The notes under the pieces are model-generated. The model was given only the letters and a program-made list of their open reading frames with translations. It was not told where the DNA came from and did not search any database. Position numbers and translations under genes: made by a program. Of a stretch of DNA of 64,000 bases, positions 33,045 through 34,443 are shown piece after piece. The stretch is from Eledone cirrhosa (taxonomy: Eukaryota): positions 195,052,001-195,116,000 of the forward strand of contig OZ024743.1 of the NCBI GenBank assembly GCA_964016885.1. The letters run 5' to 3'. Each line of letters begins with the position of its first letter. Position 1 is the stretch's first letter.

Positions 33045-33595
33045 GAGAGACGTAAGATAAGAAAATTATAAAATTATTTAAAAAAAAATAAAAAAAAAAA
33101 ATTATAAAATTTTCAACTAATTAGTTTCTTCCAACTAATTAGTTTCTGGAATGGAGTAAATATATTTTCCGAAGAACATACAGTAAAGCATTCCGTCGTC
33201 AGGAAAGTCTATTTTCGTGTAAGTTACCAGGCATAGCGAGGAATCTGGAAACTTATTAAAAAAAATAATTCCGTGGAAAGGAAATAGCGAAGCGTGGACT
33301 GAAATCCTAGCCATTGAGAAAATCACTGCCTCTACGTCTGTGGCAAATTCAAAAAGAATCAATCACGTGAGATCGAGGTCAATCAGTGGAAAGCGAGTTG
33401 TTAATAAGACAGCGGCCTGCCTACTACTATAGCAGCAGTCATGGCCAATATTGCTCGATAAATGAATTGGAGATAATTATATATTATTGTTCTGCAACCC
33501 GATGCATTGAACCACAATGTTACTAAGACGAAACCTATATATTTGCTAGCATTGATATGCATCTGTATGTATATAAATGTTACTAGATATAAATT
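33045..33595 (-). mobile_element. Diverged copy of family C (- strand with an inverted + segment at ~33490-33590)
   Basis: The reverse complement of 33050-33440 aligns with 34140-34500, and 33490-33590 aligns directly with 33975-34080. Confidence 0.75.
33129..33207 (-). ncRNA. Type I hammerhead ribozyme (family C, diverged)
   Basis: Reverse complement: ctttc CTGACGA c ggaatg...cattcc a GAAA ctaattag TT ggaag. Confidence 0.8.
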
Positions 33596-33826
33596 CTTTA
33601 TATATATATATATATATATATATATATATATATATATATATATAGAGAGAGAGAGAGAGAGAGAGAGAGAGAATTAGTACATTTACCAACATATGTGTAC
33701 AGATGTTCACCTATGCTAGCAAATATAATTTAGTCCATGCTAGCTTTATTCCATCCACTGAATTATTATTATTTTTATATGAGTTCCTAGTGTCCGCGCA
33801 TGGCCTGGGAACTTAGCTGAGAATAG

Positions 33827-33908
33827 ACTCCCTGATGACGTATGGAATTCTCTATAGTTATATTATGTAACTATATTTATTCCCATACAGAAACTAATTA
33901 GTTGGAGT
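33827..33908 (+). ncRNA. Type I hammerhead ribozyme (family C, copy 1)
   Basis: actcc CTGATGA c gtatgg..tatagtta tattatg taactata..ccatac a GAAA ctaattag TT ggagt. Confidence 0.85.
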
Positions 33909-34361
33909 GAAAATTTTAGTAAGTAAGTTGATTTTTAATTTTTTAAATTTTCTTATTTTACGTCTTTCATATAATTGTTCTGCATCCCCCTGCATAGAAC
34001 CACAAAGGTATTACGACATAACATATATATTTGCTAGCATAGGTGAACATCTGTACACATATGTTGGTAAATGTACTAATTCTCTATATTTATCTCCAAA
34101 TTATTTGTTGAGCAAAACCCAAAATTTACTGCTAATTCATGGTAGTAGTAGGCTCTTGTCATAATACCACCCCGCTCCTAACTGTTTAACCTCAGTGTCA
34201 CGTGATTGATTCTTTAGAATCTGCCACTGACCAGAGGCAGTGAACTTTTTAAGTGCTCTGGAATTTAGTCCACGCTAGCTTTATTCCATCCACTGAATTA
34301 TTATTATTTTTATATGATTTCCTAGTGTCCGCGTATCGCCTGGGAACTTAGCTGAGAATAG

Positions 34362-34443
34362 ACTCCCTGATGACGTATGGAATTCCCTATAGTTATATTA
34401 TGTAACTATATTTATCCCCATACAGAAACTAATTAGTTGGAGT
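34362..34443 (+). ncRNA. Type I hammerhead ribozyme (family C, copy 2)
   Basis: Same core and stems, 535 bp downstream of copy 1. Confidence 0.85.

What the first reader, a model, noticed from the sequence alone, without database searches (positions are those of the whole stretch)
33129..34443. Family C: two hammerheads exactly 535 nt apart plus a diverged copy with compensatory changes
Seen: CTGATGA cores at 33832 and 34367 would release a 535-nt monomer. The adjacent minus-strand copy keeps the core (CTGACGA, only N7 differs) and the palindromic ctaattag stem III. It changes stem I from actcc/ggagt to ctttc/ggaag and stem II from gtatgg/ccatac to ggaatg/cattcc. Inference: covariation in both stems means selection on the RNA fold during the family's history.
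Basis: partly seen in the sequence, partly recalled or inferred. Interest (0 to 1): 0.8.

Follow-up and report, generated by a model that had tools for sequence, protein, structure and literature searches.

The report
Ribozyme-bearing parasite of Penelope retrotransposons
These are copies of a non-coding, roughly 535-base mobile repeat whose hammerhead-shaped RNA motif occurs about 10,000 times in this genome and has kept its fold by paired changes; it is likely spread by Penelope-like retrotransposons, and many insertions stop at the predicted cut site, which suggests the ribozyme cuts in vivo.

Summary
In detail: three type I hammerhead motifs lie at 33832, 34367 (535 nt apart) and 33202 (minus). 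They belong to two separate inverted insertions from two subfamilies (~70% identical) of one dispersed non-coding repeat; the motif has 9,711 exact matches genome-wide, control 0.

Stem II covaries: 7 double changes and no broken pair on internal branches, against 10 broken pairs at tips. Selection therefore acted on source RNAs, not on inserted copies. Stem I support is weaker, and the window's minus copy is probably dead.

Insertions look Penelope-made: two fixed 3' ends into (TA)n or (CT)n, partial tandems, inverted arms. It is a non-LTR retrozyme, a known kind; this scan noted similar elements in other genomes.

Not found in my searches: head-to-head junctions crowd the predicted cut (160, against 5 in a control window), and 12 of 48 have both arms within 2 nt of it. 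The diverged subfamily shows no such excess (7 vs 7). Most arms read through the cut site, so templates were circular or uncut. The core carries a nearly invariant C·A at the base of stem II. Cleavage, expression, circles and the partner element are not shown.

The parts
33045..33481 (-). Insertion 1 (subfamily C2), long arm: 5'-truncated unit ending at 3' site A into the (TA)n run 32817-33044
33128..33208 (-). Hammerhead motif of C2: core CTGACGA from 33202, stem II GGAATG/CATTCC, predicted cut between 33133 and 33132
33113..33128 (-). Local duplication of the stem III palindrome region replacing the distal 3' arm of stem I; favours a competing hairpin
33479..33604 (+). Insertion 1, inverted short arm ending at 3' site B into (TA)n
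33599..33672 (.). (TA)n then (AG)n between the two insertions; the (AG)n is the (CT)n run that follows site B of insertion 2
33672..33727 (-). Insertion 2 (subfamily C1), inverted short arm ending at 3' site B
33727..33967 (+). Insertion 2, 5'-truncated partial unit (241 nt)
33827..33908 (+). Hammerhead 1: stem I ACTCC/GGAGT, core 33832-33838, extra C 33839, stem II 33840-33845/33883-33888 with inner hairpin, extra A 33889, GAAA 33890-33893, palindromic stem III 33894-33901, predicted cut after 33903
33904..34438 (+). Predicted cut-to-cut monomer, 535 nt, 34% GC, non-coding; folds at z -4.4
33948..33972 (+). 3' site A (read through here): fixed element end about 67 nt after the cut
33977..34075 (+). 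Two predicted hairpins between sites A and B, also predicted in subfamily C2 with different sequence
34078..34088 (+). 3' site B (read through here): second fixed element end about 185 nt after the cut
34197..34212 (+). Conserved block containing CACGTG; candidate internal promoter element (inferred, untested)
34362..34443 (+). Hammerhead 2: core 34367-34373, predicted cut after 34438
34439..34507 (+). 3' end of insertion 2, stopping at site A into (TA)n

Best explanation
This is a non-coding, high-copy mobile repeat of 520-570 nt with a conserved hammerhead-shaped RNA motif (a non-LTR retrozyme), likely copied into (TA)n microsatellites by the reverse transcriptase and endonuclease of a Neptune-type Penelope-like element, and its ribozyme likely cuts at the predicted GUU. 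Steps: (1) tandem copies are transcribed (inferred). (2) The hammerheads cut, probably as a dimer through the palindromic stem III (predicted from folding; cutting inferred from junctions). (3) Monomers are probably ligated to circles (inferred from known retrozymes). (4) The borrowed enzyme nicks (TA)n and starts reverse transcription inside the RNA at one of two fixed sites, about 67 and 185 nt after the cut (fixed ends shown; enzyme inferred). (5) Both target strands are often primed, giving two arms with 3' ends facing outward (structure shown). (6) Most arms run through the cut site, so the template was circular or uncut; a minority run off a cut 5' end (positions shown, cause inferred). 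Selection keeps the fold only in lineages that go on transposing (shown by the tree).
For: Copy number and controls. Monomers 471-571 nt in 53 tandem pairs, GC 34-37%, no stop-free frame over 99 aa in 10 representatives; no tblastn hit of 42 frames from the Penelope loci on those monomers. Covariation: 95.7% of cells paired vs 82.9% shuffled; one stem II pair has four Watson-Crick types in 99 of 99 rows; 7 double changes and 0 breaks on internal branches, slid controls 0. Fixed 3' ends: 95 of 97 site-A ends enter (TA)n; 83 of 90 site-B ends enter (TA)n or (CT)n; 4,067 and 2,016 exact end patterns. 108 of 161 arms have an inverted family arm at their 5' end. 119 of 161 arms cross the cut site. 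5' stops at -2..+3: 8 vs 1.96 expected; at -2..+10: 17 vs 4.65. Start-at-+1 pattern 66 vs 19 at -4. Head-to-head junctions 160 near the cut (10 by chance) vs 5 in a control window; 12 of 48 with both arms within 2 nt. Double hammerhead 6.7 kcal/mol better than two monomers. RT plus GIY-YIG elements with long open frames are in the genome.
Against: Subfamily C2 shows no excess of starts at +1 (7 vs 7). 18 of the 66 +1 matches are ambiguous because another subfamily begins GGG; of 30 rows inspected, 2 were a point change or small duplication and 3 came from one locus. 5' stops are also frequent at other structured stretches (-40..-31 and +101..+150), so stalling explains part of the signal. No partner element was found: none of 50 Penelope loci has this unit as its own terminal repeat, and no significant 3'-end similarity emerged. 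Tandem units of one locus were closer to each other than to outside copies in only 6 of 13 loci, so rolling-circle copying is not shown. The core departs from consensus (C·A, GUU) and matches no Rfam model. In Xenopus only 1 of 9 predicted retrozyme dimers cleaved in vitro (bioRxiv 10.64898/2026.07.22.740005).
Confidence: 0.78

Rival explanations
1. Same non-autonomous Penelope-type element, but the hammerhead fold rarely or never cuts. It serves as a protein-binding or folding signal, templates are uncut multimeric transcripts, and 5' ends gather near the site because reverse transcriptase stalls on entering stem I.
For: Most arms read through the site. Other hairpins also raise the stop rate. 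No +1 excess in C2. In the anole Penelope element, ribozyme mutants did not affect insertion in vitro and no RNA-seq reads ended at the cut (PMC11167929).
Against: Catalytic core bases stay nearly fixed across subfamilies up to 30% apart. The stop rate falls from 10.6 to 0.9 per 1,000 nt just 5' of the cut. Symmetric junctions with both arms at the cut are far more common than independent stalling predicts.
Confidence: 0.14
2. The units are only detached terminal repeats (pLTRs) of an autonomous Penelope-like element, left by 5' truncation, and are not an independently moving family.
For: Same ribozyme position and insertion pattern as pLTRs (PMC8557442). The search for a parent was limited to 50 Penelope loci.
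Against: Head-to-tail units repeat every 520-570 nt with no coding sequence between them. None of 161 arms, up to 1,514 nt long, ran into a shared parent frame; two abut Penelope 3' regions without a common pattern.
Confidence: 0.05
3. A satellite or host-domesticated regulatory RNA, spread by DNA recombination and conserved for a host function.
For: Short tandem arrays exist; the monomer is well structured.
Against: Copies are dispersed, 5'-truncated, end at two fixed 3' sites and are often inverted. Individual copies accumulate pair-breaking changes.
Confidence: 0.03

Closest known systems
Animal non-LTR retrozymes (Cervera and de la Pena 2020, PMC7229834; Li, Clavereau and Pollet 2026, bioRxiv 10.64898/2026.07.22.740005)
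   Same: Non-coding tandem units, each with a type I hammerhead; low GC; thousands of copies; Penelope-like elements in the same genome; weak palindromic stem III. A mismatch at the base of stem II is known in axolotl HHR_Amex2 (U·U).
   Different: Unit 520-570 nt, above the usual 150-450 but inside the 51-972 range of the 2026 survey. The mismatch is C·A, the site is GUU, and stem II carries a second covarying hairpin. Arrays are short. Expression and circles are not shown here. The parts of those papers I read do not map insertion ends.
Penelope-like element pLTRs and their hammerheads (Cervera and de la Pena 2014, PMC4209133; Craig et al. 2021, PMC8557442)
   Same: Partial tandems, inverted 5'-truncated arm, microsatellite targets, longer stem II, extra base after A9, G-C as the first full pair of stem II.
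   Different: No RT or endonuclease frame. An additional A sits before G12. No parent element was identified.
Internal initiation by the anole Poseidon element PAc (Frangieh et al. 2024, PMC11167929)
   Same: Two alternative internal 3' ends downstream of the hammerhead; AT-rich targets; both strands extended.
   Different: The two sites are about 118 nt apart, not 30-40. Here genomic junctions mark the cut site, whereas PAc showed no need for cleavage in vitro and no reads ending there.

Membership tests
Type I hammerhead ribozyme | Core CUGANGA, GAAA and NUH in order, with stems I, II and III | tested here: met
   H17 is U
Type I hammerhead ribozyme | Covariation supporting the stems | tested here: met
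   Stem II and inner hairpin strong; stem I weak; stem III invariant and so uninformative
Type I hammerhead ribozyme | G10.1-C11.1 pair directly next to the core | tested here: not met
   C and A flank a G-C pair in 222 of 224 copies each (partly imposed by the search anchors). U·U variants are described (PMC3088659; PMC7229834)
Type I hammerhead ribozyme | Match to an Rfam hammerhead model | tested here: not met
Type I hammerhead ribozyme | Site-specific self-cleavage | not testable with these tools
   Indirect only: junction pile-up in the GGAGTG subfamilies, none in C2
Non-LTR retrozyme | Tandem non-coding units, each with a type I hammerhead, GC under 50% | tested here: met
Non-LTR retrozyme | Dispersed multi-copy family without LTR structure | tested here: met
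   primer-binding site and polypurine tract were not searched for
Non-LTR retrozyme | Autonomous Penelope-like elements in the same genome | tested here: met
Non-LTR retrozyme | Expressed as linear and circular monomer RNA | not testable with these tools
   No RNA holder listed
Non-LTR retrozyme | Rolling-circle copying (tandem units from one template) | tested here: inconclusive
   Private shared variants in 7 of 13 loci; within-locus distance smaller in 6 of 13
Penelope-type insertion | Partial tandems, inverted 5' arm, alternative fixed 3' ends, microsatellite target | tested here: met
Penelope-type insertion | Terminal similarity to an identified autonomous partner | tested here: inconclusive
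   None found among 50-51 Penelope loci, a small sample of 10,595 first-look candidates
Penelope-type insertion | Target-site duplication | not tested
   Microsatellite flanks obscure it
Autonomous Penelope-like element | RT plus GIY-YIG open frame | tested here: not met

The most novel reading that the evidence does not exclude
The genome holds a fossil record of ribozyme cutting in the germ line. A Penelope enzyme primes both strands of a (TA)n target, copies two RNAs to their ribozyme-cut 5' ends and joins them head to head, while most insertions come from re-ligated circles. The C·A-core hammerhead is an active variant, cutting differs between subfamilies, and the enzyme stutters on the RNA's own CUCU to add new (CT)n microsatellites.
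Probability: 0.4. Interest if true: 0.65.

Novelty: new member of a known kind. Interest (0 to 1): 0.42.

Why it matters
The kind of element is known. What hammerheads do for Penelope-type elements is described as unclear (PMC8557442), and one in vitro study found cleavage unnecessary (PMC11167929). This family offers thousands of insertions whose ends can be mapped, subfamilies that differ in the cut-site signal, and a tree showing selection on the fold. That makes in vivo cutting, circular templates and two-ended insertion directly testable. It also gives a core variant that Rfam misses.

Tried and rejected
Rfam: no hammerhead match; weak miRNA hits on TA repeats were rejected as compositional. 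Expression: no RNA holder listed; the three runs laid were contigs of unknown kind and said nothing on expression. Partner search: 50 GIY-YIG loci and 42 frames gave no direct link; family copies in L176 and L156 lie in or beyond a TA run downstream of the Penelope element; 3'-end alignment gave only a low-complexity hit. The first boundary map was fragmented by greedy hit choice and was replaced. The pair analysis had an off-by-one error in the 3' arm and was redone; only its distance table is used. A long hammerhead-like match at 24037 and one at 58990 have 3-bp stems II and were taken as chance. No pile-up of 5' ends marking a transcription start was seen in the -250..-101 bins. Lunse et al. 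2017 (PMC5785218) was not held; it may describe this core variant. Two narrow literature searches for junction evidence returned no paper. No earlier notes exist for this genome.

Full report
Observation. A strict motif scan finds these 3 and none in 200 shuffled windows. Rfam matches no hammerhead model. The plus pair is one full 535-nt unit preceded by a 241-nt truncated piece. The minus copy is about 70% identical and belongs to a separate insertion.

Family. The window lies in a 3.0-Gb genome. The plus unit gave 3,643 first-look candidates and the minus copy 2,307, so the diverged copy represents its own subfamily. A core pattern has 9,711 exact matches and its reversed control 0. In 53 tandem pairs the cut-to-cut monomer is 471-571 nt, all but one at 521 or more; 10 representatives have 34-37% GC and no stop-free frame over 99 aa. 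Stem II types differ by 6-30% outside the ribozyme (distance table).

Covariation. Of 224 distinct copies from loci L001-L138, 192 fall into eight stem II variants with at least 5 copies, each fully paired. I aligned 99 sequences: the 3 window copies and 96 of 97 distinct copies from the pattern-selected loci. One long row was dropped, and copies with microsatellite in the stem I flank were skipped. Of 1,675 cells, 95.7% pair, against 82.9% shuffled and 29-46% slid. The second stem II pair occurs as G-C, U-A, A-U and C-G with no exception, and all 5 scored pairs of an inner hairpin show two-sided changes. That shuffle ignores relatedness, so I built a tree from sequence outside the ribozyme for 90 of 91 monomers. 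Internal branches carry 7 two-sided changes, 1 wobble change and no broken pair; tips carry 10 broken, 3 one-sided and 2 two-sided changes; slid partners never change together. Selection therefore acted on RNAs that founded subfamilies, while inserted copies decay. Stem I shows mainly a C-G to U-G change and a matched insertion.

Ribozyme anatomy. Stem III is a short palindrome. In the 33800-34460 transcript the free fold already pairs the two palindromes, and a double hammerhead is 6.7 kcal/mol better than two single ones. A C follows CUGANGA and an A precedes GAAA in 222 of 224 copies each; the anchors partly impose this, but loci L001-L060 were chosen by whole-unit similarity. The extra base after A9 is usual in Penelope hammerheads (PMC4209133). 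A U·U at this place is described (PMC3088659; PMC7229834). I did not find C·A in what I read, but could not read Lunse et al. 2017. The window's minus copy is probably dead, because a duplication past the cut favours another hairpin by 13.1 kcal/mol.

Insertion pattern. Elements end at two fixed places. At site A, about 67 nt after the cut, 163 passes continue, 95 end in (TA)n and 2 end otherwise. At site B, about 185 nt after the cut, 105 continue, 58 end in (TA)n, 25 in (CT)n and 7 are other or unclear. Exact end patterns occur 4,067 and 2,016 times. I took 161 arms chosen by their 3' end from 140 loci, which cover only part of the 200 places listed, all on contig C1. Of these, 108 have an inverted family arm at the 5' end, 27 have (TA)n and 26 something else. 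Both window insertions have this two-armed form. Partial tandems, inverted arms and microsatellite targets are Penelope traits (PMC8557442), and two internal initiation sites were shown for the anole element (PMC11167929). The genome has RT plus GIY-YIG elements with frames up to 1,096 aa. Their cysteine linker, read by eye, fits the Neptune clade as described in PMC8557442. No partner was identified.

Template. A linear cut monomer could give only 67 or 185 nt of cDNA, yet 60 of 71 A arms and 59 of 90 B arms cross the cut site. Those templates were circular or uncut; I could not tell which.

Footprint of cutting. 5' ends stop at -2..+3 in 8 cases against 1.96 expected (Poisson P about 0.001), and at -2..+10 in 17 against 4.65. 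The rate is 0.9-1.4 per 1,000 nt at -20..-3. The windows were chosen after seeing the data, and other hairpins also raise the rate. Genome-wide, arms starting at +1 match 66 times against 19 at -4; 18 of the 66 are ambiguous. Head-to-head junctions number 160 around the cut (10 for the reversed control) and 5 in an equal window further upstream; shorter anchors and more arms at risk explain only part of that gap. Of the first 50 junctions listed, 48 were scored (one dropped as non-family, one duplicate collapsed). Both arms lie within 2 nt of the cut in 12 of 48, or 9 of the 34 with family sequence verified on both arms. Five have one base between two +1 arms, which may be a non-templated base or U17; four are centred on the palindrome. 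Against this, subfamily C2 gives 7 at +1 and 7 at -4. My searches found no paper reporting such junctions, but they were narrow.

(CT)n at site B. Runs of three or more CT follow site B in 33 of 59 ends whose nearest read-through copy has CTCT or ATCT there, in 0 of 52 with CTTT or CTAT, and in 0 of 135 site-A ends; at least 28 of 34 runs are followed by (AT)n. The run depends on the template, which suggests stuttering at initiation; later expansion from a short seed is the alternative.

Verdict. This is a new member of the animal non-LTR retrozymes, which a 2026 preprint treats as non-autonomous Penelope derivatives. It works like them with good support; membership lacks proof of cleavage and circles. 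Reading: parts 1-3 of 5 of the preprint; parts 1-2 of 4 of PMC4209133 and of PMC11167929; passages and parts 2-4 of 6 of PMC7229834; passages only of PMC8557442, PMC3088659, PMC6765202 and PMC6155905. No supplements were read, and they may list similar cores. Earlier scan notes on other genomes describe similar elements and did not change my reading.

Noticed in passing
window 31940-32640: A second hammerhead-bearing family (core CTGACGA at 32336, plus strand, U·U at the base of stem II), also as a two-armed inverted insertion ending in the same (TA)n cluster.
   Followed up: partly
L120:1854-2830 (minus strand): An inverted arm of that second family is joined directly to a family C unit, whose site B end is joined directly to a 5'-truncated Penelope frame; suggests shared machinery or template switching.
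   Followed up: partly
L012:700-745: About 30 nt that by eye match the inverted 3' end seen downstream of a Penelope element are joined to a truncated family C arm.
   Followed up: no
L170:5500-6420: A third retrozyme-like family with a 459-nt unit and U·U at the base of stem II; its tail begins with a hairpin resembling family C's first tail hairpin.
   Followed up: no
L163, L169, L170, L177, L180: Penelope elements here carry U3-A8 variant hammerheads; by the script 141-200 nt before the next TA run in four of them and 76 nt in L180.
   Followed up: partly
L335: A locus whose units lack the whole ribozyme: the sequence jumps from just before stem I to +1, yet is present in several copies.
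   Followed up: no
window 33917-33926: A conserved GTAAGT, resembling a splice donor, lies shortly after the cut in all subfamilies; no matching acceptor was seen.
   Followed up: no
window 34515-34640: Another repeat beside TA runs, also seen at L120:2870-3000.
   Followed up: no
window 45001-47762, 52293-53054, 12011-12874: LINE-type endonuclease and reverse transcriptase frames, unrelated to this family.
   Followed up: no
window 37133-37294 and 53537-53890: A 37-bp minisatellite (99% matches) and a 180-bp two-copy repeat.
   Followed up: no
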